From an uncultured Clostridiaceae bacterium (GTDB lineage: Bacteria > Bacillota > Clostridia > TANB77 > CAG-508): a DNA stretch of 64,000 bases. A program made the translations under genes and the position numbers. Below, one piece after another: positions 26,362-36,109 of the stretch. Where the stretch lies: contig CAKNOI010000003.1 in the NCBI GenBank assembly GCA_930990125.1, forward strand, positions 972-64,971. Reading direction: 5' to 3'. The notes beneath the pieces were generated by a model that saw nothing but the letters and a program-made list of their open reading frames with translations, searched no databases and was not told the DNA's origin. The first letter of the stretch is position 1; every line of letters begins with the position of its first letter.

Positions 26362-27063
26362 ATGTATACCATATTAGTATGTGATGATGATAAAGAAATT
26401 GTAAAAGCTATCGAGATATATCTTACCAAGGAAGGATATCACGTAGTAAAGGCCTATAACGGAAGAGAAGCATTAGATATTATTAATAAAGAAGAAGTAC
26501 ATCTTGTACTACTAGATATTATGATGCCAGAAATGGACGGCATGACAGCAGCAGCAAGAATACGAAAAGATAAGACAGTTCCTATTATTATGCTATCTGC
26601 CAAATCTGAAGACTATGACAAAATTATGGGATTAAACAATGGAGCAGACGATTATGTTACTAAACCATTTAACCCACTAGAATTAATAGCAAGAGTAAAT
26701 TCACAAATCCGTAGATATACTTCTCTTGGCTCTATTCATCAAGAAAAAGAAAACGAAGAAAATGTTTATATAACAGGAGATTTAAAAATTAATGACAATA
26801 CCAAACAAGTAACAGTAGAAGGAAAAGAAGTAAAACTGACACCAACGGAATATAACATTTTAAAATTCCTAACAAAAAATAAAGGAATTGTCTTTTCCAT
26901 AGAGCAAATCTATGAAAACGTATGGGAAGACGAAGCCTATGGAGCAGAAAATATTATTGCTGTTCACATTAGACATATTAGAGAAAAAATAGAAATTAAT
27001 CCAAGAGAACCAAAATACTTAAAAGTAATATGGGGCATTGGATATAAAATAGAAAAATTATAG
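26362..27063 (+). CDS. OmpR-family response regulator (TCS-1)
   Basis: DDD...D phospho-acceptor pocket, K105-equivalent, winged-helix C-terminus. Confidence 0.9.
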   Translation: MYTILVCDDDKEIVKAIEIYLTKEGYHVVKAYNGREALDIINKEEVHLVLLDIMMPEMDGMTAAARIRKDKTVPIIMLSAKSEDYDKIMGLNNGADDYVTKPFNPLELIARVNSQIRRYTSLGSIHQEKENEENVYITGDLKINDNTKQVTVEGKEVKLTPTEYNILKFLTKNKGIVFSIEQIYENVWEDEAYGAENIIAVHIRHIREKIEINPREPKYLKVIWGIGYKIEKL

Positions 27064-27080
27064 GAGGATTGATTCCATTC

Positions 27081-29180
27081 ATGGAAAAAAGAATAGAAAA
27101 TTCTGCCATACTTAAGATAATAGCCTATATCTTATTATTTGTTTTTGTTATTTTAACAGGATATAGTGCATTAGGATATATTGCTTACAAAGAAATGCCA
27201 GAAATAGCTACTAATAAACCATATTACGAAACACAAGCCTTTGCAGATACCTTTGAAACACATATTGCTATCAATATGAGTAGGTTAGATAGTTTTATAC
27301 AAAATTACCAAGATTACCAAGAAGAAGTGCAAGCAGTAGACCAAGAAACTGTAAGCGAAAGTTCTGTATTAGAAGATTATACCTACTTTCATTCCCAAGA
27401 ACAATCCTACTTAGAAAAAATACAAAATGGTGAAATTTTATACGAATCTCTATATTCTAACATGGGAGCAAGCTTTCGCTATCTCATTATTAAAGACAAT
27501 TTAAAAATAACCAATATTGTGCAAACAGGAGATACCGACACAGTAGAAAAACTAATACAAACCATTAGGAAAGACAGCTATCATTGGAGCTATGTCAAAG
27601 GAGAAGTAGGAACTAATATTGCAAATTTAGAAAAAGACAAGGTTATTTATGACCCGCAAATAGAAGATATTATAGAAGGAGACTACGAAGTTTATTTCTC
27701 TTACCAACCAAATACAACAGAATATACAGCTTTTGAGAGAAATAATGCCATCTATGAGCTGATACAAAAACATTATATTGGCTACGAAATGCTTCCTTTA
27801 TATGCTTTTTTAAGTATTATTCTTTTCGTTTACCTTACTGTTAGTATGGGACATTCTAGAAAAAAGGAAGAAATATATTGTAACTTTATAGACCGAATCC
27901 CATTAGAAATACTTCTTTTCCTTAGTGGAATGGCTGTTTCGTTTGAAGTACTAGGTTTATATGTTATGTTTATTGATATTTCACAAATCATGTACGAAAG
28001 AATAACTATACCATTTATTAGCATTTTATCTATCATTGCCATGATTTACATTACTATCATGATTACCTATTCTAGTATGATACGTAGAATAAAAGCAAAA
28101 ATATTCTGGAAAAACACAATAGTATATAAATGTTGGGCTTTCTTAAAAAGAGTAATATGGGGCAATATAACCAAATTTATGGGTAGATTATCTGCTAATT
28201 GGAGACTAAGTATTTACTATTTTGGATTTTGCATTATATCTGTTATTTTATTCTTACTAGCACTAGATAATGGATTTTGCGTATTTCTACTCCTAGTATG
28301 GGGTATATGGGTATTTATGAAGATAACAGACCACTTAAAACAATTAAAAAAAATACGCGACATGATTAACCATATCTACGACGGCAAAACAGACTTCTTG
28401 TTAAACGAAGAGGAATTTAAAGGAAACCTAAGAAATGTTGCAAAATACTTAAATGACATTGCAGGCGGATTCTCCAATGCCATAGAAGAAAACCTAAAAA
28501 GTGAAAGAATGAAAACAGAATTAATAACCAATGTATCCCATGACTTAAAAACACCACTTACTTCTATTATCAATTACGTAGACTTATTAAAAGCAGAAAA
28601 TATAGAAAACGAAAAAGCAAAAGAATATATAGAAGTATTAGATAACAAATCACAAAGACTAAAAAAACTAACCGAAGACTTAGTAGAAGCTTCTAAAGCA
28701 TCTTCTGGAAATATTAAACTGACCATGGAAAAACTAAAAGTAAAAGAACTCATTCATCAAGTAACAGGAGAGTTTGAAGATAAATTTGAAGCAAGAAAAT
28801 TAGAAACCATTTTAAGTTACCCAGAAGAAAACGTACTCATTTTAGCCGATAGTAGATACCTATATCGTGTATTAGAAAATATATACTCCAATATCGCAAA
28901 ATACGCAAAAGAAGATACACGCGTATATGTAGACATTGTAAAAAATAACAAAAAAGTATTAATCGCCATCAAAAACATCTCCAAAGAGCAATTAAACATC
29001 TCAGCAGACGAACTAATGCAACGATTTGTAAGAGGAGATAGCTCCAGAAACACAGAAGGAAGCGGACTAGGCCTATCCATAGCCAAAAGCCTAACAGAAC
29101 TGCAAGGAGGAAGCTTCGACATCTACCTAGACGGCGACCTATTTAAAGTAGTAATCGAATTCCCTATTGTGGAAGAATAA
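27081..29180 (+). CDS. Sensor histidine kinase (TCS-1) with a large ~230-aa extracytoplasmic domain and multiple TMs
   Basis: H-box HDLKTPLTSI; N, G1 and G2 boxes in the C-terminus. Confidence 0.85.
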   Translation: MEKRIENSAILKIIAYILLFVFVILTGYSALGYIAYKEMPEIATNKPYYETQAFADTFETHIAINMSRLDSFIQNYQDYQEEVQAVDQETVSESSVLEDYTYFHSQEQSYLEKIQNGEILYESLYSNMGASFRYLIIKDNLKITNIVQTGDTDTVEKLIQTIRKDSYHWSYVKGEVGTNIANLEKDKVIYDPQIEDIIEGDYEVYFSYQPNTTEYTAFERNNAIYELIQKHYIGYEMLPLYAFLSIILFVYLTVSMGHSRKKEEIYCNFIDRIPLEILLFLSGMAVSFEVLGLYVMFIDISQIMYERITIPFISILSIIAMIYITIMITYSSMIRRIKAKIFWKNTIVYKCWAFLKRVIWGNITKFMGRLSANWRLSIYYFGFCIISVILFLLALDNGFCVFLLLVWGIWVFMKITDHLKQLKKIRDMINHIYDGKTDFLLNEEEFKGNLRNVAKYLNDIAGGFSNAIEENLKSERMKTELITNVSHDLKTPLTSIINYVDLLKAENIENEKAKEYIEVLDNKSQRLKKLTEDLVEASKASSGNIKLTMEKLKVKELIHQVTGEFEDKFEARKLETILSYPEENVLILADSRYLYRVLENIYSNIAKYAKEDTRVYVDIVKNNKKVLIAIKNISKEQLNISADELMQRFVRGDSSRNTEGSGLGLSIAKSLTELQGGSFDIYLDGDLFKVVIEFPIVEE

Positions 29181-29185
29181 CACAA

Positions 29186-29210
29186 AAGGGACGGGGAATT
29201 TTGGCAGAAA
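29186..29210 (+). repeat. GC-rich box AAGGGACGGGGAATTTTGGCAGAAA (copy 1 of 3) directly after the HK stop codon
   Basis: Identical 22-mer recurs inverted at 33193-33214 and direct (21/22) at 33147-33168. Confidence 0.7.
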
Positions 29211-29250
29211 GAAAGAGGAAAACCATAATAATAGTTTTCCTCTTTCTTTT
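29207..29250 (+). terminator. Intrinsic terminator (AAAGAGGAAAAC ... GTTTTCCTCTTT + T-run)
   Basis: 12-bp perfect stem with a T-tract. Confidence 0.7.
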
Positions 29251-29545
29251 AACGTTTAATCGACTTCCTTTTTGCGGGAGTATTTGTACTGCCCAACGCA
29301 CTTCCGTCCATTCCTCATGATACTCTCTCTGATAGATGAAGTTTTACTAGTAGTCATAAACAACGTCCTTTCTTTCACTAAAGATGTAAAAATAATGAGT
29401 CCTAAGACATCACGTCCAGTATAACATAAAATAGCAAGAAAAGTCAATGCATTATGTGAATTTGACAGTGCTTTGTCTTTTACAATTTACAAACAAAATA
29501 AATCCATACACATTAGCCCCATAATCTACCCAAAAACCACAAAAT

Positions 29546-29556
29546 ATGCTATAATA
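29546..29556 (+). promoter_or_regulatory. Extended -10 promoter TGCTATAAT
   Basis: TGnTATAAT ~40 nt upstream of the small ORF at 29599. Confidence 0.5.
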
Positions 29557-29598
29557 TTTCTAGCAGTACATACTGTAATTCTATCAAGGAGTGGTCTT

Positions 29599-29715
29599 AT
29601 GAACAAGCAGTCTACCGTATATTCTACTCTACCTTCTCACAATGTGTATGTAAAAGCATATGTACAAATGCGAGAAAAACAGCGGAGAATAAAGGAGGCA
29701 AGAGAAAGCAAGTAA
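29599..29715 (+). CDS. Small ORF, 38 aa (MNKQSTVYSTLPSHNVYVKAYVQMREKQRRIKEARESK)
   Basis: AAGGAG RBS 8 nt upstream; its own extended -10 promoter; followed by a strong terminator. Confidence 0.4.
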   Translation: MNKQSTVYSTLPSHNVYVKAYVQMREKQRRIKEARESK

Positions 29716-29723
29716 AAAGACCC

Positions 29724-29762
29724 AAAAAAGGCCCTAGGGAGAAATTCCTTAGGCCTTTTTCC
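29724..29762. terminator. Bidirectional intrinsic terminator (AAAAAAGGCCCTAGGGA ... TCCTTAGGCCTTTTTCC)
   Basis: Long GC-containing hairpin flanked by A-run and T-run. Confidence 0.65.
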
Positions 29763-29776
29763 ATGAAAATGAAAAA

Positions 29777-29809
29777 AGTCACTGGATAGTCACTTTATCA
29801 CCATATAAT
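29777..29809 (+). promoter_or_regulatory. Candidate response-regulator site (direct repeat AGTCACT-GGAT-AGTCACT at 29777-29794) 9 nt upstream of the -10 TATAAT (29804-29809) of the bceA-like promoter
   Basis: Two identical heptamers 11 bp apart overlapping the -35 position; RBS AGGAGGG and ATG 29831 follow. Confidence 0.45.
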
Positions 29810-29830
29810 CTATACCAGGAGGGAAAGAGA

Positions 29831-30511
29831 ATGGAAATTTTAAGAGTAGAAGATTTATGCAAAACATATGGAAAGGGAGAAACAGAGGTAAAAGCACTAA
29901 ATCATGTTTCCTTTTCCGTAGAAAAGGGAGAGTTTGTAGCAATTATTGGGGCTTCTGGTTCTGGAAAGTCTACCTTGCTTCATATTTTAGGGGGAGTAGA
30001 TAGACCAAATTCTGGTAAAGTATATATTGATGGAACAGATATCTATTCGCTAAATAACGACGAGTTAGCCATTTTTAGAAGAAGGCAAATTGGCCTTATT
30101 TATCAGTTTTATAACTTAATTCCTATTTTAAACGTAGAAGAAAACATCTCACTTCCAGTATTGCTAGATGGAAAAGAAGTGGATGCTGGACGTTTAAATG
30201 AAATTGTAGATACTTTAGGGCTAAGAGATAGGGTAAAACATTTGCCAAACCAATTATCGGGAGGGCAACAACAGCGTGTGTCTATTGGTAGAAGTTTAAT
30301 GAATACCCCTGCTATTATTTTAGCAGATGAGCCAACAGGAAATTTGGATAGTAAAAATTCTAAAGAAATCTTAGAGCTACTTAAATTTTCCAACAAAAAA
30401 TATAATCAGACCATTATTATGATTACCCATGACCAAGAGTTAGCATTAGAAGCGGATAGAATTCTTACCATTGATGATGGCTGTATTGTAAAAAATGAGA
30501 AAATAAGATAG
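29831..30511 (+). CDS. ABC transporter ATP-binding protein, BceA/VraD-type (peptide-antibiotic resistance)
   Basis: Walker A GASGSGKST, LSGGQQQR, ILADEPTGNLD; MacB/LolD-like, paired with an FtsX permease. Confidence 0.85.
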   Translation: MEILRVEDLCKTYGKGETEVKALNHVSFSVEKGEFVAIIGASGSGKSTLLHILGGVDRPNSGKVYIDGTDIYSLNNDELAIFRRRQIGLIYQFYNLIPILNVEENISLPVLLDGKEVDAGRLNEIVDTLGLRDRVKHLPNQLSGGQQQRVSIGRSLMNTPAIILADEPTGNLDSKNSKEILELLKFSNKKYNQTIIMITHDQELALEADRILTIDDGCIVKNEKIR

Positions 30512-30522
30512 TAGGTGAGACC

Positions 30523-33128
30523 ATGAATATTTTAAAAAAGTTAACCTTAAAGTATTTAAAGCAAAATAAAAAAAGAACCATTGTAACCATTATTGGTATT
30601 ATTCTATCTGGTGCCATGATATCTGCAGTTGCAACACTAGCGGTAAGTTTTCAGCAGTTTATGCTAAAAGTAGAAATTGCAAACTCTGGAAATTGGGAAG
30701 CAATGTATGAAAATGTAGAGCAAGATAAAGTAAAGTATTTAGAAGATAATGTTAAGTTTTCCGAAGTAATGAAAATGCTACAAATAGGCATGGCACAAAA
30801 CCCTTATTCGGATGAACATTTTTTATATATCAAAGCCTATGATGAAAAAGCTTTAGAAAACATGGCACTTACCGTAGAAAGAGGAAGACTGCCACAAAAT
30901 AACAAAGAAATATGCATAAGTGCTAGCTTTTTTGACGGAAACGATAACGAACCCAAAATAGGAGATACTATTACCTTATCAATGGGAAATAGAATAAGTA
31001 GTGATGGCTATGAACTAATTTCTGCTCCAGAAGAAGAAGGGGAAACATTTAACGTAACAGGACAAAAGACTTACACAATATGTGGAATTATTTCAAGACC
31101 AGATTTTGAAAAATCCTCTGATCCATTTAATGGAGGAGTAACCCTGCTAGATAGCAGTGACATTTCCGAAAATAGTAAATGGGATGTAGCAGTAAATGTA
31201 AAAAGGGTACATAGCATCTATGAAGATAGCGAAGAAATAGCCGAAAATTTAGGGTTATATCCTGACACAAATGCAGAAGAAAACGTATATCCTATTACCT
31301 ATAATACTTCTGTATTATTGTACAAAGGAGTAAATGGAACCAATGGTTTTAATGAAATGTTATATTCTGTATGTGGTATTTTAATTCTTATTATCATGGT
31401 AGGTTCTATTATGGTAATTTATAATAGTTTTGCTATATCGGTACAAGAAAGAAAAAAACAATTTGGAATGCTTTCTTCCGTAGGAGCAACCAAAAAACAA
31501 ATACAAAAATCAGTACTATATGAAGGATTTGTCCTTGGCTGTATCGGAATTCCTATTGGTATTCTAGCCGGAATAGGTGGAATTGGAATTACAATTCGTA
31601 TTGTAGGAGAATTACTAAAATCCATTATTAACCAAGGCAACTGGACACTAGAATTAGTAATATCTTGGCCTACTATTGTTATTGCTATTATTCTAATGGC
31701 ACTTACCATCTACTTTTCTGTACGCTTGCCAGCAAAACGAGCAAGTAAAATTACGCCAATAGAAGCGATTAGACAAACAGACGACATTAAAGAAGTAAAT
31801 CGTAAAAAAATACAAACACCAAAATGGATTCGAAAAGTGTTTGGCATAGAAGGAGAACTAGCCCTTAAAAATCTAAAAAGAAGCAGAAAACGTTATCGTA
31901 CAACCGTTATTTCTTTAATTATTAGTATTGTCCTTTATGTCTCTGTAAGCGGATTTGTAGGCTACTTATTTACCGGATTTAACAGTATGTACGTAAATCC
32001 AGAATATGACTATATTATTCCATACAGTTTATATTCCGATGCCGATACCGTAGAAAAAGAACAAATCCAAAATTTTGAACAAGAAATAAAGCAAACAGAG
32101 CGAATAGAAAAAATAAGCTATTTATATAAATACATTACAACTGCTACCATACCAAAAGAAAAAATAGACCCACGTTTACAAGAAGAATTTTCTAATGATG
32201 CAAATTTCTTTTCTCCACCCAAAATGAAGACGGTTCTTATCAAATATCTATTAATATCATAGGATTAAACCAAGAAGAATGGAGTCAATACCAAAAAGAA
32301 ATAGGTGCAGAAGACATAAAAGAGGAAGAATTTATTTTGCCAAATTATCGTAACTTCCTTACAATTTTAAACATGGAAACAGACTTAACCACCTATCAAG
32401 AAGGAGAAAGTATTCTTACCAATAATTTTGCAGATGGACACGAGGAACAAATGAAAATTGGAAAAGTGACAGAAAAAATGCCATGGGCAATATCCGATAT
32501 GCAAACAAACCTAGTTCTTATTACAACACAAGAAAATCTGCTTAGGATGGTACAAACAGAAGAAGTACTTTCTAGACAAATCTATGTAAAAATGGAAGAA
32601 GAGGCATTAGAAAATAGAGTGATAGAAGAAAAAGTAGAAGAAGCAAAAGCAAACTATTCTGATATAGATATTTCTGTAGTAAATCTTGCAGAAGATGCTA
32701 TAGCAAACCGTAATTTATCTACCATCTTTAACATCTTCCTATATGGATTTATTGTACTCATTTCCCTAATTGGAATTGCCAACATCTTTAACACCATTTC
32801 TACCAACATCAACCTAAGAAGAAGAGAATTTGCAAACTTAAAATCCATCGGAATGACAGACAAAAGCTTCCGAAGAATGTTAAACCTAGAATGTTTCTTT
32901 TATGGAACAAAAGCACTTTTATACGGTGTACCAATAGGAGTCTTCCTATGTTTCCTAATTAACCAAGGATTTGGAAATATGATAGAATTTATCTTTACAC
33001 TCCCATGGCAAAGTATCCTAATTTCCACTATTGCCGTATACACCGTAGTATTTGTAACCATGTTATATGCAAGTAGTAAAGTCAAAAAAGAAAACATAAT
33101 AGATGTCTTAAGAAACGACAATATTTAA
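30523..33128 (+). CDS. BceB-type FtsX-family permease, interrupted by an apparent 1-nt deletion near 32221-32224 (ORFs 30523-32262 and 32337-33128 are one gene)
   Basis: The frame of the second ORF stays open back to 32199, overlapping the first ORF; TM-loop-3TM FtsX units in both parts. Confidence 0.75.
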
Positions 33129-33143
33129 AACAACAAAACAACA

Positions 33144-33217
33144 CAAGGGACGGGGGATTTTGGCAGAAACCATAACAAATACAACAAAAATTCTGCCAAA
33201 ATTCCCCGTCCCTCTTG
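33144..33217. repeat. Near-perfect 25-bp-arm palindrome (CAAGGGACGGGGGATTTTGGCAGAA ... TTCTGCCAAAATTCCCCGTCCCTCTTG) = copies 2 and 3 of the GC-rich box
   Basis: Inverted repeat with a 22-nt loop directly after the permease stop; no T-tract follows. Confidence 0.7.
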
Positions 33218-33219
33218 TA

Positions 33220-33248
33220 TTGACGAGGTTTGGTAGTTATAGTATACT
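33220..33248 (+). promoter_or_regulatory. Sigma-A promoter TTGACG, 17 nt, TATACT for the RR-HK operon
   Basis: Hexamers at 33220-33225 and 33243-33248. Confidence 0.55.
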
Positions 33249-33269: not shown

Positions 33270-33950
33270 ATGATAAATCTATTGTTAGTAGAAGATAATG
33301 AAACCATTATCACAGGATTAACCTATGCACTTTCACAGGAAAGTTTTGAGGTGGATGTTGCTAGGACTGCCTATGAGACGAGGCAAAAGTTGCAAAGGCA
33401 ATCTTATGACTTACTTATTTTAGATGTTTCGCTTCCAGATGGGGATGGTTTTGAAATATGCAAAGAAGTAAAGAAAAAGGATATAGAACTTCCTATTATT
33501 TTTTTAACAGCAAAGGACGAGGAAAAAGATGTGGTATTAGGCCTAGAAATAGGAGCAGATGATTATGTTATTAAACCATTTCGTACCAAAGAACTTATTT
33601 CTAGAATTCGTACAGTGTTAAGAAGGTATCATAAAAAGGAAGAAAAAAGCACTATACAAATAAAAGATGTTACCATAGACCTTGCAAAAGCAGAAGTATA
33701 CAAAGGAAAGAGTCAAGTGATTCTAACAGCATTGGAATATAAAATATTGGTAATGCTCTTCCAAAATCAAAATCGACTCATTACAAGAGAACAACTATTA
33801 GATAAAATATGGGATGTTGCCGGAAATTTTGTAAATGATAATACGTTAACAGTATATATTAAAAGGATTCGTGAAAAAATAGAAAACAACCCTGCAGAGC
33901 CAGAAATTATTAAAACTATTCGAGGAATAGGATATAAGGTGGGCGAGTAA
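33270..33950 (+). CDS. OmpR-family response regulator (TCS-2, BceR-like)
   Basis: Receiver plus winged-helix domains; adjacent to the Bce-type transporter. Confidence 0.9.
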   Translation: MINLLLVEDNETIITGLTYALSQESFEVDVARTAYETRQKLQRQSYDLLILDVSLPDGDGFEICKEVKKKDIELPIIFLTAKDEEKDVVLGLEIGADDYVIKPFRTKELISRIRTVLRRYHKKEEKSTIQIKDVTIDLAKAEVYKGKSQVILTALEYKILVMLFQNQNRLITREQLLDKIWDVAGNFVNDNTLTVYIKRIREKIENNPAEPEIIKTIRGIGYKVGE

Positions 33951-33951
33951 A

Positions 33952-35190
33952 ATGAAGCTATTGGCGCAAGAAAAAATAAGAAAGCTACTGCTGGTATGTA
34001 GTATTTTAGTAGGAACAGTAGTAATACTAGTTATGATTTCCTTACAACTGCAAAGTAAAGAATTCCATAGAGAAACAAACAAGATTCTTGCAGGTATAGT
34101 AGGAAGTCTGATAGAAAAATATCCAGAAGCGGAGCAAGATATCATAAAACAGTTATCCACCATACAAGAACAAACTGTGGAAGATGGGATGCAAATTTTG
34201 CAAAAATATGGAATAAATGTCGAAGAAATAGTACCTGCTACAAATTTAGAGCAAGTACATCAAAAAAGTATGCGAATAATGCTTTTATGGATTGTCCTTT
34301 TAGGTATTTTGCTAATTAGTTGTTTTGCTATTTATTTGTATCGTAGAGAGAAAAAAATAAGAGCCATTACCGAATATTTAAAAGAAATAGAAAAACAGCA
34401 ATACTCCTTAAAAATTCAAGAAAACGAAGAAGGAGAATTAAGCTATCTGCAAAACGAAATCTACAAAATTACAGTAATGTTAAAAGAAAGTGCACAAAAG
34501 CTTTCACAAGATAAAAAATACTTATCCAATGCACTTTCCGATATTTCCCATCAAATTAAAACACCACTGACTTCTATTTCTGTTTTACTAGATATTTTAA
34601 AAGAAAACACCAATCTTCCAGAAGAAAAAAGACAAGAATTTTTATTTGAAATATCCAGACAAATAGAATGGATTCATTGGCTAGTAATTTCTCTTTTGAA
34701 ATTATCCAAATTTGATGCAGGAACAGTAGAACTAAAAAAGGAAACAATTTTGATTCAAAACCTAATAAAAGAAGTAATACAAAACTTGAGTATTCCATTA
34801 GAAATAAAAAATCAAACCATCCAAATGCAAGGAGACCCAAGCTCAAGTTTTATAGGTGATTTTCATTGGACAGCAGAGGCTATTATTAATATTATCAAAA
34901 ATTGTATGGAGCATACCGAAGAAGGAAAAACCATACAAGTAAGTTTTAAAGAAAATGCACTGTTTACCCAAATAATTATAAAAGACTCTGGAGAAGGAAT
35001 AGCAAAAGAAGATTTACCCTATATTTTTCAGCGCTTTTATAAAGGAAAAAACGCAGGTAAAGATAGTTTTGGAATAGGATTAGCACTAGCAAAAGCCATT
35101 ATTCAAAATCAAGGAGGAGACATCAGTGTAAAAAGCAAAAAAGGAGAAGGTACCACCTTTTTTGTTACCATTTATAAAGGGATTCATTAA
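33952..35190 (+). CDS. Sensor histidine kinase (TCS-2), two TMs with a very short external loop (intramembrane-sensing type)
   Basis: H-box HQIKTPLTSI and HATPase motifs; start overlaps the RR stop. Confidence 0.85.
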   Translation: MKLLAQEKIRKLLLVCSILVGTVVILVMISLQLQSKEFHRETNKILAGIVGSLIEKYPEAEQDIIKQLSTIQEQTVEDGMQILQKYGINVEEIVPATNLEQVHQKSMRIMLLWIVLLGILLISCFAIYLYRREKKIRAITEYLKEIEKQQYSLKIQENEEGELSYLQNEIYKITVMLKESAQKLSQDKKYLSNALSDISHQIKTPLTSISVLLDILKENTNLPEEKRQEFLFEISRQIEWIHWLVISLLKLSKFDAGTVELKKETILIQNLIKEVIQNLSIPLEIKNQTIQMQGDPSSSFIGDFHWTAEAIINIIKNCMEHTEEGKTIQVSFKENALFTQIIIKDSGEGIAKEDLPYIFQRFYKGKNAGKDSFGIGLALAKAIIQNQGGDISVKSKKGEGTTFFVTIYKGIH

Positions 35191-35233: not shown

Positions 35234-35944
35234 TTACTCCACAATAGGGCTTGGTGTATTCAATGCTTCATCTGCCTCTTCTTGAGAAATATAGTTATAT
35301 TTTACCATAGAGCTTAATACTTTTTGTTGCCTTTTGGTAGCTAAATCTATGTTAGACCTTGGAGAATAATAATAAGGAGAATTTGGCACACCTGCAAGTA
35401 AGCTAGCGTCATACAAAGTCATTTCCATTGGGTCTTTTCCTAAGTAACCATTGCATGCTTCTTTAATTCCGGTATATCCATACCCAAAGTAACTATTATT
35501 CACATAAATTTCTAAAATCTCATCCTTATCATACATACTTTCTAGTTTAAATGCCATAAAAATTTCTGCTATTTTACGTACCATACTTTCATCTTGTGTA
35601 AAGAAAATATTTTTTGCAATTTGCTGTGTAATAGTACTTCCACCTTCCACAAAATCAAAATTTTTAATATTGGTTACAATAGCTCTTCCAATAGCAATAA
35701 TATCAATAGCACCGTGGTTATAAAAACGATGGTCTTCTACTGCAACAACAGCATTTAAATAACTTTGTGGAAGTTCTTCCAATGTCACATAATTTTCGGA
35801 CTCCTGAATTTCTTTAATTTTTGCTGTAATATTCTCATCAGATGATTGCTCTCTATAGAACAAATATCCTTGAACGGTGAAAACAATACCAGTTACTAGG
35901 ATAATGGCAAGGACAATCAAAACTATTCTTTTAAACCATTTCAT
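35234..35944 (-). CDS. Monofunctional peptidoglycan glycosyltransferase (GT51, MtgA-like)
   Basis: EDHRFY.H.G.D and GGSTITQQ motifs; N-terminal TM. Confidence 0.85.
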   Translation of the reverse strand: MKWFKRIVLIVLAIILVTGIVFTVQGYLFYREQSSDENITAKIKEIQESENYVTLEELPQSYLNAVVAVEDHRFYNHGAIDIIAIGRAIVTNIKNFDFVEGGSTITQQIAKNIFFTQDESMVRKIAEIFMAFKLESMYDKDEILEIYVNNSYFGYGYTGIKEACNGYLGKDPMEMTLYDASLLAGVPNSPYYYSPRSNIDLATKRQQKVLSSMVKYNYISQEEADEALNTPSPIVE

Positions 35945-36109
35945 ATATTTTACCTCTCTTATACTATTTATTGTACACTATAATTCTAATTTTGAAAAGT
36001 GACTTATACGTGACTTTAATAATTTCTTAAGAGAAAAGTAAAAAATATTTTGTTTGCGAAAAAGAAAAGGATGTGGTATGATAACAAAAATAAAAAGGAG
36101 ACAAAGAAA

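What the first reader, a model, noticed from the sequence alone, without database searches (positions are those of the whole stretch)
29181..33217. Bce-type resistance module bracketed by inverted copies of a GC-rich 22-25-nt element
The 22-mer GGGACGGGGAATTTTGGCAGAA occurs at 29189-29210 in direct orientation, right after the TCS-1 kinase stop, and at 33193-33214 in inverted orientation. A third near-identical direct copy at 33147-33168 pairs with the inverted one to form a 25-bp-arm palindrome right after the permease stop. The element is much more GC-rich than its surroundings. Between the outer copies lie only a 38-aa ORF and the bceAB-like transporter, with no transposase. Inverted terminal copies are the signature of a mobilised cassette or a recombination footprint. 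Alternatively the element is a shared palindromic regulatory or REP-like site.
Basis: seen in the sequence. Interest (0 to 1): 0.6.

Follow-up and report, generated by a model that had tools for sequence, protein, structure and literature searches.

The report
REP-like transposase target repeats, not cassette ends
The GC-rich 22-mer is real, but it is a small selfish repeat of a known kind (REP/REPIN-like, tied to a Y1 tyrosine transposase) scattered through these gut Clostridia genomes. It landed separately on each side of an ABC-transporter operon that was already there, so it does not mark a mobilised resistance cassette.

Summary
The 22-mer sits at 29188-29209 (+), 33147-33168 (+, 1 mismatch) and 33191-33212 (-). 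The last two form a 23-28 bp hairpin (-45 kcal/mol).

The cassette interpretation does not hold.
- In related genomes the same sequence forms the inverted terminal repeats of a 226-228 aa HUH/Y1 transposase gene. Its best fold match is E. coli TnpA-REP (4ER8). The repeats also bound internally deleted derivatives of that unit and occur as scattered extragenic singlets and doublets.
- In four transposase orthologues the repeat is a hairpin with a conserved loop GGGACGGGGAA and covarying stems.
- At least ten loci carry it in a metagenome assembly that contains the window's locus and matches its composition.
- The sister species (ATPase 90%, HK1 79% identical) has the same kinase-terminator-transporter-promoter layout but no repeat at either boundary. 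A more distant species keeps only a decayed remnant at the right boundary.

So the two sites are independent insertions of a REP/TIRtron-type element into intergenic DNA.

No transposase gene is in the window. The transporter is a duplicated MacB/FtsX type, not canonical BceAB, and its permease carries a 1-nt frameshift in this strain. This is a new member of a known kind, of modest interest.

The parts
29179..29209 (+). REP-like singlet (solo terminal repeat), AACACAAAAGGGACGGGGAATTTTGGCAGAA. It lies between the HK1 stop (29180) and HK1's own terminator.
   Evidence: It is identical to the 27-nt terminal inverted repeat AACAAAAGGGACGGGGAATTTTGGCAG that bounds the Y1-transposase unit in L004. 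It is absent from the orthologous site of the sister species L043, where the terminator is conserved. On its own it forms only a 5-bp stem of -1 kcal/mol.
29207..29250 (+). Intrinsic terminator hairpin plus T-run of the TCS-1 operon. It probably acts in both directions, since it also ends the minus-strand gene found in other strains. It is context, not part of the repeat.
   Evidence: Fold (17-bp stem). It is conserved in L014, L016 and L043.
33141..33168 (+). Left arm of the REPIN-like doublet (REP copy with 1 mismatch).
   Evidence: It is polymorphic among strains (T>C, C>A) with no compensating change in the right arm.
33169..33190 (.). 22-nt A-rich spacer, the loop of the doublet.
   Evidence: Spacers differ in sequence and length between doublets at other loci, for example 20 nt in L020.
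33191..33218 (-). Right arm of the REPIN-like doublet (exact REP copy, inverted).
   Evidence: The 20-nt core of the right arm is unchanged in the six strains compared; its only difference is one C/T site in the outer flank, 33214. A decayed homologue sits at the same junction in L044. In L063 a plain AT-rich terminator stands there instead.
33220..33248 (+). Sigma-70-like promoter of TCS-2 (TTGACG - 17 nt - TATACT), directly after the hairpin. Context.
   Evidence: The counterpart TTGACT...TATACT is conserved in the sister species L063, which has no repeat.
29831..33128 (+). ABC operon enclosed by the copies: ATPase 29831-30511 and a duplicated FtsX/MacB-type permease 30523-33128. The permease is split by a 1-nt deletion near 32215.
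   Evidence: It is intact (868 aa) in strains L013-L016.

Best explanation
The 22-mer is the core of a REP-like repeat: the DNA target and terminal repeat of a RAYT/TIRYT-type HUH Y1 tyrosine transposase that circulates in this group of low-GC gut Clostridia.

Its full form is a single-strand hairpin with a conserved 11-nt loop, GGGACGGGGAA, and a lineage-specific stem. In the window's lineage the 5' half of the stem has degenerated to AACAAAA. The unit therefore behaves as a 27-28 nt terminal repeat that occurs in three forms:
(i) inverted pairs around the transposase gene;
(ii) short inverted doublets that fold into long hairpins (REPIN-like);
(iii) orphan singlets.

The window holds one doublet (33141-33218) and one singlet (29179-29209). 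Each was inserted on its own into the short spacer between a stop codon and the next regulatory signal, on either side of a resident ABC operon. They are not the two ends of one mobile unit.

Mobilisation is inferred to be in trans. By analogy with E. coli TnpA-REP and IS200/IS605 TnpA (established knowledge), the transposase would bind and cut the hairpin in single-stranded DNA and leave no target duplication.

In the mRNA the doublet probably acts as a strong 3' stem that protects the transporter transcript, and it may dampen read-through into TCS-2. That function is inferred, not shown.
For: SHOWN
1. In MAG CALXPY01 the same 20-mer plus its AACAAAA flank forms 27-nt inverted ends around a 228-aa ORF (L004:180-1018).
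   - The ORF hits Pfam Y1_Tnp at 1.6e-10, above cutoff.
   - It hits NCBIfam REP_Tyr_transpos at 8e-19.
   - HUH and Tyr are invariant in 17 homologues.
   - The AlphaFold model's best PDB match is 4ER8, TnpA-REP bound to a REP hairpin (E 6e-5, TM 0.67), ahead of IS608/IS200 TnpA.
2. Four further loci of that MAG carry internally deleted copies of the unit with both ends kept.
3. Orthologues at 60-71% identity in three other species are each flanked by inverted hairpin repeats with the same loop and different stems: GTGCCAAAA/TTTTGGCAC, GTGTCAA/TTGACAC and ATGCCAAA/TTTGGCAC. Extra extragenic copies lie nearby.
4. On 16 hand-picked hairpins, 7 of 10 stem pairs show changes on both sides. Pairing is 79% against 29-47% when the register is slid, and 0 of 500 shuffles reach the observed covariation score.
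5. Dispersal in the window's own species.
   - Metagenome assembly UMJJ01 contains the window locus (L029) plus nine or more other loci with AACAAAAGGGACGGGGAATTTTGGCAGA.
   - For L019-L022 and L031 the tetranucleotide correlation with the window is 0.985-0.992, equal to the window's self-control of 0.987-0.991. L032 gives 0.980 and L033 0.969, inside the range of the other species; L035 and L036 were not tested. Other species score 0.98 or less.
   - The copies are extragenic, often 2-20 nt after a stop codon.
6. The sister species has the operon but neither repeat.

INFERRED: trans-mobilisation by the transposase, and any effect on the RNA.
Against: - No transposase gene of this family is in the 64-kb window. 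I could not locate one in the window's own species, so the repeats there may be fossils.
- The left arm of the doublet carries uncompensated polymorphisms, which fits decay.
- Copy number is tens, not the hundreds typical of classical REPs.
- The window-type unit is barely palindromic by itself (5-bp stem) and has no GTAG tag.
- The NCBIfam score (67.9) is below that model's cutoff of 80.
- Assigning the UMJJ01 loci to the window's species rests on composition only.
- Two of about ten loci lying 4 kb apart is somewhat more clustered than random placement would give. However, another contig of the same assembly has at least six copies in 47 kb.
Confidence: 0.85

Rival explanations
1. Mobilised cassette. 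The outer inverted copies at 29188 and 33212 are the termini of a transposed or recombined unit that delivered the transporter between two two-component systems.
For: - The outer copies are 31 nt at 94% complementarity and face each other like terminal inverted repeats.
- In this repeat family, inverted pairs do bound units with other content: the transposase gene (L004), a 113-aa ORF of unknown function (L033:4607-5204), and a REP-to-REP duplication next to a 301-aa gene (L051).
- A distant relative (L047, HK1 46% identical) lacks the ABC operon and TCS-2 at this locus.
Against: - The sister species L043/L063 has the operon in the same place with conserved terminator and promoter but no repeat at either end.
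- L044 keeps TCS1-ABC-TCS2 with no left copy.
- The left 'end' would lie between HK1's stop codon and HK1's own conserved terminator.
- There is no target-site duplication: the flanks are GAATAA| and |ATTGAC.
- No transposase is in the window.
- No plasmid or phage relative of the module or of the hairpin was found.
- No orientation polymorphism appears among the strains read.
Confidence: 0.03
2. Shared regulatory palindrome. The repeat is a protein-binding operator, for example for one of the OmpR-type response regulators, that coordinates the two TCSs and the transporter.
For: The three copies in the window all lie at operon boundaries of one functional gene cluster. The right arm directly abuts the -35 box of the TCS-2 promoter.
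Against: - The same sequence lies next to unrelated genes at many loci and flanks a transposase gene.
- It is missing from the sister species, which has the same genes and promoter.
- A better candidate regulator box exists at the ABC promoter: the direct repeat GTCACT-N5-GTCACT at 29778-29794. A one-mismatch copy lies upstream of the transglycosylase gene at 35998-36014.
Confidence: 0.03
3. Exapted RNA element, compatible with a REP origin. The 33141-33218 hairpin now serves as the 3' stabiliser or terminator-insulator of the transporter mRNA, replacing an ordinary terminator.
For: - The stem is very stable (-45 kcal/mol) and sits 13-18 nt after the permease stop, just before an independent TCS-2 promoter.
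- At the same position the sister species has a canonical small AT-rich hairpin plus T-run, so a 3' structure is 'expected' there.
- The doublet is kept in all strains read.
- A remnant persists in L044 despite only 57% permease identity.
- REP hairpins are known to stabilise upstream mRNA in enterobacteria (established knowledge).
Against: - No U-run follows the stem (CUCUUGUAUUGACG), and the terminator scan does not call it.
- The left-arm polymorphisms are uncompensated.
- The L044 remnant keeps only an 8-bp stem.
- The permease is frameshifted in this strain, so selection on the transcript may be relaxed.
Confidence: 0.3
4. MITE derived from a conventional DDE insertion sequence with 27-nt terminal inverted repeats.
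For: The elements have terminal inverted repeats, sizes of 78-840 bp and internal-deletion derivatives, much like MITEs.
Against: - The only gene ever found between these ends is a Y1/HUH transposase.
- No target-site duplications are visible at the insertions compared.
- In the orthologous systems each end is itself a hairpin, which is the hallmark of single-strand Y1 transposition, not DDE transposition.
Confidence: 0.03

Closest known systems
TIRtrons / TIRYTs (Di Nocera et al. 2013, PMC3733652), equated with TnpA-Y1 subclass 2.1 (Quentin et al. 2018, PMC6006769)
   Same: - A RAYT-like Y1 transposase gene is flanked by long terminal inverted repeats rather than GTAG REPs.
- Those repeats form moderately abundant families of singles and dimers.
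- The protein is longer than TnpA-REP, with an extra C-terminal helical region (residues about 160-228 in the model).
- The repeat contains GGGGACGG, one base from the published motif GGGG[AT][CG]A[CG].
   Different: - The published motif is not matched exactly.
- No Pfam HTH or DnaA_C hit was obtained for the C-terminus.
- Quentin et al. report finding no REP-like hairpins next to subclass 2.1 genes. Here the flanking repeats of four orthologues are clear hairpins with covarying stems and a conserved loop.
- Subclass membership was not tested against reference sequences.
REP / REPIN-RAYT systems (Nunvar 2010; Bertels & Rainey 2011, PMC3116915; E. coli TnpA-REP, PDB 4ER8)
   Same: - Short extragenic repeats.
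- Inverted doublets that fold into long hairpins, plus decaying singlets.
- A transposase gene flanked by the repeats in inverted orientation (REPtron).
- In the MAG's species the transposase sits at one fixed chromosomal locus across samples.
- The best structural match is TnpA-REP.
   Different: - Tens of copies rather than hundreds.
- No GTAG or CGTC unpaired tag.
- The loop, not the stem, is the conserved part.
- The window-type unit has lost most of its own palindrome.
- The whole REP-gene-REP unit appears to have moved or duplicated (deletion derivatives at other loci; duplication in L051). This is IS-like, and closer to Bertels' 'Group 1' RAYTs, which occur in Clostridia and have about 12 flanking-16-mer copies.
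IS200/IS605 family insertion sequences
   Same: HUH/Y1 chemistry, hairpin ends, and no target duplication (established knowledge). The fold search lists IS608, IS200 and ISDra2 TnpA after 4ER8.
   Different: IS200/IS605 ends are not inverted repeats of each other and do not spawn families of tiny doublets. The NCBIfam IS200 model scores only 18 bits.
BceAB-BceRS type peptide-antibiotic resistance modules
   Same: An FtsX-domain ABC transporter sits next to OmpR-type two-component systems. A direct-repeat box lies at the transporter promoter.
   Different: - The permease is 868 aa and looks like a tandem of two MacB/YtrF-type units. Its best PDB sequence hits are YtrF, LolF and MacB, and PsdB matches only residues 262-352 at 2e-6.
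- HK1 is 703 aa and HK2 412 aa, not the roughly 350-aa intramembrane-sensing BceS type.
- Homologous transporters occur without any TCS nearby.

Membership tests
REP/REPIN-RAYT system | Short repeat confined to extragenic space and present at many dispersed loci of one genome | tested here: met
   - MAG CALXPY01: 11 exact 20-mer matches on 5 contigs.
- Assembly UMJJ01: the window locus plus at least 9 other loci; the five best-matching of them are compositionally indistinguishable from the window.
- All copies lie outside real genes.
- The count is tens, not hundreds. The same-species assignment rests on composition.
REP/REPIN-RAYT system | Each unit is itself an imperfect palindrome (hairpin in ssDNA) | tested here: inconclusive
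   Clear in the orthologous systems: 7-10 bp stems and covariation at 7 of 10 pairs. The window-type unit keeps only CAAAA/TTTTG, 5 bp at -1 kcal/mol.
REP/REPIN-RAYT system | Inverted doublets that fold into a long hairpin (REPIN) | tested here: met
   Window 33141-33218, -45 kcal/mol, z -9.4. L020 doublet, -50 kcal/mol, z -11.7. L019 doublet of two hairpin units.
REP/REPIN-RAYT system | A Y1 (HUH + Tyr) transposase gene flanked by the repeats in inverted orientation | tested here: met
   Met in related genomes only: L004, L049, L053, L062. Supported by Pfam Y1_Tnp, invariant H60/H62/Y120 and 4ER8 as best fold match. Not found in the window, and not located for the window's own species.
REP/REPIN-RAYT system | Unpaired GTAG (or CGTC) tetranucleotide tag at one end of the palindrome | tested here: not met
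   No GTAG is next to any copy. CGTC occurs only inside the loop, on the complementary strand (CCCCGTCCC).
REP/REPIN-RAYT system | Protein passes the curated RAYT model | tested here: not met
   NCBIfam NF047646 REP_Tyr_transpos: 67.9 bits, E 8e-19, below the curated cutoff of 80.
TIRtron/TIRYT (TnpA-Y1 subclass 2.1) | RAYT-like gene bounded by long terminal inverted repeats that also form a moderately abundant repeat family | tested here: met
   27-nt ends in L004 and its derivatives. Dispersed singles and dimers.
TIRtron/TIRYT (TnpA-Y1 subclass 2.1) | Motif GGGG[AT][CG]A[CG] in the terminal repeat | tested here: not met
   The closest string is GGGGACGG (7 of 8), in hairpin-type copies. Window-type copies read AGGGACGG. 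The motif is quoted.
TIRtron/TIRYT (TnpA-Y1 subclass 2.1) | C-terminal HTH extension (Bac_DnaA_C / HTH_23 / HTH_28) | tested here: inconclusive
   A confident all-helical C-terminal region is predicted (residues 163-225, pLDDT 80-92). No Pfam HTH family appears at E <= 0.1.
Composite transposon / mobilised cassette | Both terminal repeats and the cargo are present or absent together in relatives; target-site duplication; a cognate transposase | tested here: not met
   The cargo is present without either repeat in L043/L063. No duplication at the flanks. No transposase in the window.
BceAB-type transporter | BceB-type permease (about 650 aa, single large extracellular domain) closest to solved BceB/PsdB | tested here: not met
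   868 aa. MacB_PCD plus two FtsX domains. Best PDB sequence hits are YtrF, LolF and MacB, and PsdB gives only a weak local match. Transmembrane topology was not computed.
Rho-independent terminator | GC-rich stem immediately followed by a U-run | tested here: not met
   For 33141-33218 the tail is CUCUUGUAUUGACG and the scan does not call it. The separate hairpin at 29207-29250 does have a T-run.

The most novel reading that the evidence does not exclude
These repeats may be the so-far-missing hairpin substrates of the HTH-bearing Y1 transposases (TIRYT / subclass 2.1), for which no REP-like structures had been recognised. Under this reading:
- the substrate is a stem-loop whose 11-nt loop GGGACGGGGAA, not its stem, is conserved from gut Clostridia to Coriobacteriia;
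- the repeat-gene-repeat unit is still mobile, given the deletion derivatives at other loci, the precise REP-to-REP duplication and the insertion next to ssrA;
- it can occasionally enclose passenger genes.

REP-bounded gene segments such as the transporter here would then be potentially mobilisable, even though this one was not delivered that way.
Probability: 0.3. Interest if true: 0.5.

Novelty: new member of a known kind. Interest (0 to 1): 0.25.

Why it matters
For the scan, this removes a false lead. Inverted GC-rich repeats around a resistance-like operon look like cassette ends, but here they are independent insertions of a REP-type element. The transporter is an old, syntenic (and, in this strain, frameshifted) chromosomal gene set.

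For specialists in mobile DNA there are two modest points of value. First, it documents a REP/RAYT-type system in uncultured low-GC gut Clostridia, where such systems are little described. Second, it gives a concrete, testable DNA substrate for a Y1-transposase group whose targets are unclear: a hairpin with a conserved loop and covarying stem.

It also offers natural occupied and empty sites between sister species for studying how such elements insert between stop codons and terminators or promoters.

Tried and rejected
- Rfam at gathering threshold over the whole window gave no family, so the hairpin is not a known RNA.
- tblastn of the transposase against the window gave nothing significant.
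- tblastn against the Coriobacteriia loci gave no transposase near the motif. The neighbours are housekeeping genes.
- Searches with up to 6 mismatches and with sub-motifs found no decayed extra copies in the window.
- Plasmid search with the 4-kb segment gave only generic 66% ABC-ATPase similarity. Phage search with the hairpin gave no match.
- I tried to find the transposase of the window's own species by fetching contexts of the most prevalent homologues (P0151, P0207, P0123, P0136). All belong to other species by GC, composition and flanks. The look-ups were then exhausted.
- Permease homologues P0255 and P0257 turned out to be non-syntenic paralogous loci without TCS, so they say nothing about the junction.
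- A base-precise empty site for copy 1 could not be defined. The HK1 C-terminal tail differs in length between species, and MAFFT spreads the gap. Only 'repeat absent between stop and conserved terminator' is claimed.
- A longer structure joining copy 1 with sequence beyond the terminator (44-nt arms, 70%) is not supported by folding.
- The sigma-70-like hit TTGGCA-17-CATAAT that overlaps copy 1 was not pursued. Promoter-like hits are no more frequent here than in shuffles.

Full report
**1. Observation**

The 22-mer GGGACGGGGAATTTTGGCAGAA occurs exactly at 29188-29209 (+) and 33191-33212 (-), and with one mismatch at 33147-33168 (+). No match is expected in shuffled sequence. Relaxed searches find no further copy in the 64 kb.

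The similarity extends beyond the 22-mer. The outer copies are 31 nt at 94% complementarity. The local palindrome has 28-nt arms around a 22-nt spacer. As RNA the palindrome folds with 23 contiguous pairs at -45.1 kcal/mol (z -9.4).

**2. Local anatomy**

Pfam gives this gene order:
- AI-2E transporter
- RR1 (26362-27063) and HK1 (27069-29180, 703 aa)
- ABC ATPase (29831-30511)
- FtsX/MacB-type permease (30523-33128)
- RR2 (33270-33950) and HK2 (33952-35190)
- a convergent monofunctional transglycosylase (35234-35944, minus strand)

Copy 1 lies between the HK1 stop and a separate, classical terminator hairpin at 29207-29250. The doublet lies between the permease stop and a good sigma-70-like promoter for TCS-2 (TTGACG-17-TATACT, 33220-33248). 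Rfam finds nothing in the window.

**3. What the repeat is**

A scan of one genome per species for the 20-nt core found it repeatedly in one related low-GC MAG, CALXPY01. There AACAAAAGGGACGGGGAATTTTGGCAG forms inverted ends of elements 115-840 bp long.

The longest element (L004:180-1018) encodes a 228-aa protein:
- It matches Pfam Y1_Tnp at 1.6e-10.
- It matches NCBIfam 'REP-associated tyrosine transposase' at 8e-19, though 67.9 bits is below the curated 80.
- HUH and Tyr are invariant across 17 homologues.
- Its AlphaFold model (pLDDT 71.5) has 4ER8, E. coli TnpA-REP bound to a REP hairpin, as best PDB match. IS608, IS200 and ISDra2 transposases follow.

The shorter elements are internal-deletion derivatives of the same unit. 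One of them abuts the tmRNA gene.

The protein family is large: 1481 proteins at E <= 1e-10, about 226 aa. Orthologues at 60-71% identity in three other species are each flanked by the repeat in inverted orientation. In those species the repeat is a proper hairpin.

**4. The hairpin**

Across these systems the loop GGGACGG(G/A)G(A/G)A is constant while the stem changes in a compensated way. Stems seen are GTGCCAAAA/TTTTGGCAC, CTGCCAAA/TTTGGCAG, GTGTCAA/TTGACAC, TGCAACAAAA/TTTTGTTGCA and AAGACA/TGTCTT.

On 16 hairpins that I selected by hand:
- 7 of 10 stem pairs show changes on both sides.
- 79% of cells pair, against 29-47% when the register is slid.
- No shuffle of 500 reaches the observed covariation.

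The hand selection is a caveat.

The window-type unit has lost the 5' half of the stem and keeps only CAAAA/TTTTG, so alone it is barely structured. It forms a long hairpin only as an inverted doublet.

**5. Test of the cassette idea**

Exact-protein look-ups show that the window's species is common in gut metagenomes. All strains read carry both repeat sites. The left arm of the doublet is polymorphic without compensation, while the right arm's 20-nt core is unchanged and only one C/T site in its outer flank (33214) varies.

The sister species is represented by L043 and L063, which are 99.7% identical to each other in their overlap. Against the window, RR1 is 95% identical, the ATPase 90%, HK1 79% and the permease 71%. 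It has the same order: HK1 - terminator - minus-strand gene - small ORF - ATPase - permease - promoter. The differences at the two boundaries are these:
- After HK1's stop, the conserved terminator follows at once, with no repeat.
- After the permease stop there is a small AT-rich terminator and then TTGACT...TATACT, again with no repeat.

A more distant species (L044; HK1 56%, permease 57%) keeps TCS1-ABC-TCS2-transglycosylase-LytB synteny. It has no left copy. At the permease|RR2 junction it has a decayed remnant, AAAAGGGA-tgt-GTGCCAAtttggtCCGTCCCTTTTG.

The operon is therefore older than the repeats, and the two sites have separate histories. No target duplication, no transposase in the window, and no plasmid or phage counterpart was found.

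**6. Dispersal in the window's own species**

The metagenome scan returned 25 loci. One assembly, UMJJ01, contains the window's locus (L029) and at least nine other loci with the window-type repeat. These occur as singlets, as doublets (L020, 20-nt spacer; L031, decayed partner), as a doublet of two full hairpin units (L019), and as a pair 578 bp apart around a 113-aa ORF (L033).

For five of these loci (L019-L022, L031) the tetranucleotide correlation with the window is 0.985-0.992, the same as 10-kb pieces of the window against the whole (0.987-0.991). L032 gives 0.980 and L033 0.969, which overlap the range of the other species, and L035 and L036 were too short to test. Loci of other species give 0.94-0.98. 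Copies are extragenic, and several start 2-20 nt after a stop codon.

**7. Mechanism**

*Shown:* repeat identity, hairpin covariation, association with a Y1/HUH gene, dispersal, and occupied versus empty sites.

*Inferred from established knowledge of TnpA-REP and IS200/IS605:* the transposase recognises the hairpin in single-stranded DNA, cuts and rejoins without target duplication, and can move doublets in trans. Singlets are inactive leftovers.

*Also inferred:* the 33141-33218 stem may protect the 3' end of the transporter mRNA or reduce read-through into TCS-2. It sits where the sister species has an ordinary terminator, but it lacks a U-run.

**8. Comparison with known systems**

The closest described entities are these:
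- 'TIRtrons/TIRYTs' of Di Nocera et al. 2013. These are RAYT-like genes flanked by long inverted repeats, some sharing GGGGWSAS, with moderately abundant repeat families.
- TnpA-Y1 subclass 2.1 of Quentin et al. 2018. These are longer proteins with a C-terminal HTH, for which no REP-like hairpins were found.
- REP/REPIN-RAYT systems.
- Bertels' Group 1 RAYTs, which occur in Clostridia and have about 12 copies of the flanking 16-mer.

The system here shares the gene-flanking inverted repeats, the doublets and singlets, and the fold. It differs in lacking a GTAG/CGTC tag, in missing the published motif by one base, in its low copy number, and in signs that the whole unit still moves. Those signs are the deletion derivatives and a precise REP-to-REP duplication in L051. 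I file it as a new member of a known kind.

**9. The 'Bce-type' label**

The intact permease is 868 aa. Its best matches among solved structures are YtrF, LolF, a pneumococcal MacB-like permease and MacB. The BceB-type PsdB aligns only over residues 262-352. The kinases are 703 and 412 aa. Close homologues of the transporter occur without any TCS. It is a TCS-adjacent MacB/FtsX-family transporter, and BceAB membership is not supported.

**10. Limits**

- Same-species assignment of the UMJJ01 loci rests on composition.
- The empty site for copy 1 is defined only to within the A-rich flank, because the HK1 tail varies between species.
- Whether the L044 remnant is orthologous or an independent insertion is open.

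Noticed in passing
window 32205-32262 (permease, 30523-33128): A 1-nt deletion near 32215 (TTCT-CCACCC versus TTCTGTCACCA in intact strains) splits the 868-aa permease into 579-aa and 263-aa ORFs. The same lesion is in L012 and in 15 similar contigs, while L013-L016 are intact. It is not in a homopolymer. It therefore looks like a real lineage-specific pseudogenisation rather than a sequencing error.
   Followed up: yes
window about 29256-29530; L014:8830-9528(-), L016:8829-9617(-), L043:2728-3402(-): Some strains and the sister species carry a 224-262 aa minus-strand gene with no Pfam family between the HK1 terminator and the ABC promoter. The window strain (with L012, L013, L015) has lost about 600 bp of it and keeps only the 5' stump. 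L043 has an additional 481-aa gene here, so this spacer is a variable spot.
   Followed up: partly
window 29600-29716, terminator-like hairpin 29733-29753: A 38-aa basic ORF (MNKQSTVYSTLPSHNVYVKAYVQMREKQRRIKEARESK) has its own RBS, an upstream TATAAT and a terminator-like hairpin. It sits just upstream of the ABC promoter. A 37-aa gene is called at the same place in the sister species L043. It could be a leader peptide or small regulatory peptide.
   Followed up: no
window 29778-29794 and 35998-36014: A perfect direct repeat GTCACT-N5-GTCACT overlaps the -35 region of the ABC-operon promoter (-10 TATAAT follows). A one-mismatch copy lies between the transglycosylase gene (minus strand) and lytB. 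This is a candidate OmpR-type response-regulator box that would link the transporter and a cell-wall gene in one regulon.
   Followed up: partly
L002:2410, L003:3438, L009:5479, L010:1007, L026, L042 (Enorma/Collinsella, 63-65% GC): The same loop with an 8-9 bp stem (CCTGCCAAA-gGGGACGGGGGAt-TTTGGCAGG) occurs as extragenic hairpins between housekeeping genes of Coriobacteriia. In L009 and L010 it is nested inside a second, related palindrome. No Y1 gene is in the fetched flanks. Conservation of a REP loop across phyla is unexplained; it could reflect horizontal transfer of the transposase or convergence.
   Followed up: partly
L033:4600-5215: Two window-type repeats in inverted orientation, 578 bp apart, enclose a 113-aa minus-strand ORF with its own RBS and terminator and no Pfam hit. 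This is either a passenger gene inside a repeat-bounded unit or two independent insertions.
   Followed up: partly
L051:5841-8735 versus L049, L050, L052: In one sample the whole REP-transposase-REP unit (about 860 bp, 98.8% identical copies; identity begins at the upstream repeat and falls off just past the downstream one) is present twice, with a 301-aa gene between the copies. Other samples have a single copy at this locus, downstream of rplL. This suggests the unit itself duplicates or moves.
   Followed up: partly
L053:6687-7075 and L011:1819-2211: The transposase unit (L053), and a decayed remnant of it in the MAG (L011), abut the 3' end of the tmRNA gene (tag ADNRELAYAA). This is a classic integration hot spot.
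   Followed up: yes
L008:524-607: A 64-bp tandem duplication of the left end of the element (repeat plus adjacent 44 nt) gives two direct copies of the terminal repeat.
   Followed up: no
L044:7496-8177: In the more distant species the ABC ATPase gene is called as two ORFs (173 + 61 aa). This suggests the transporter is also decaying there, by a different lesion.
   Followed up: no
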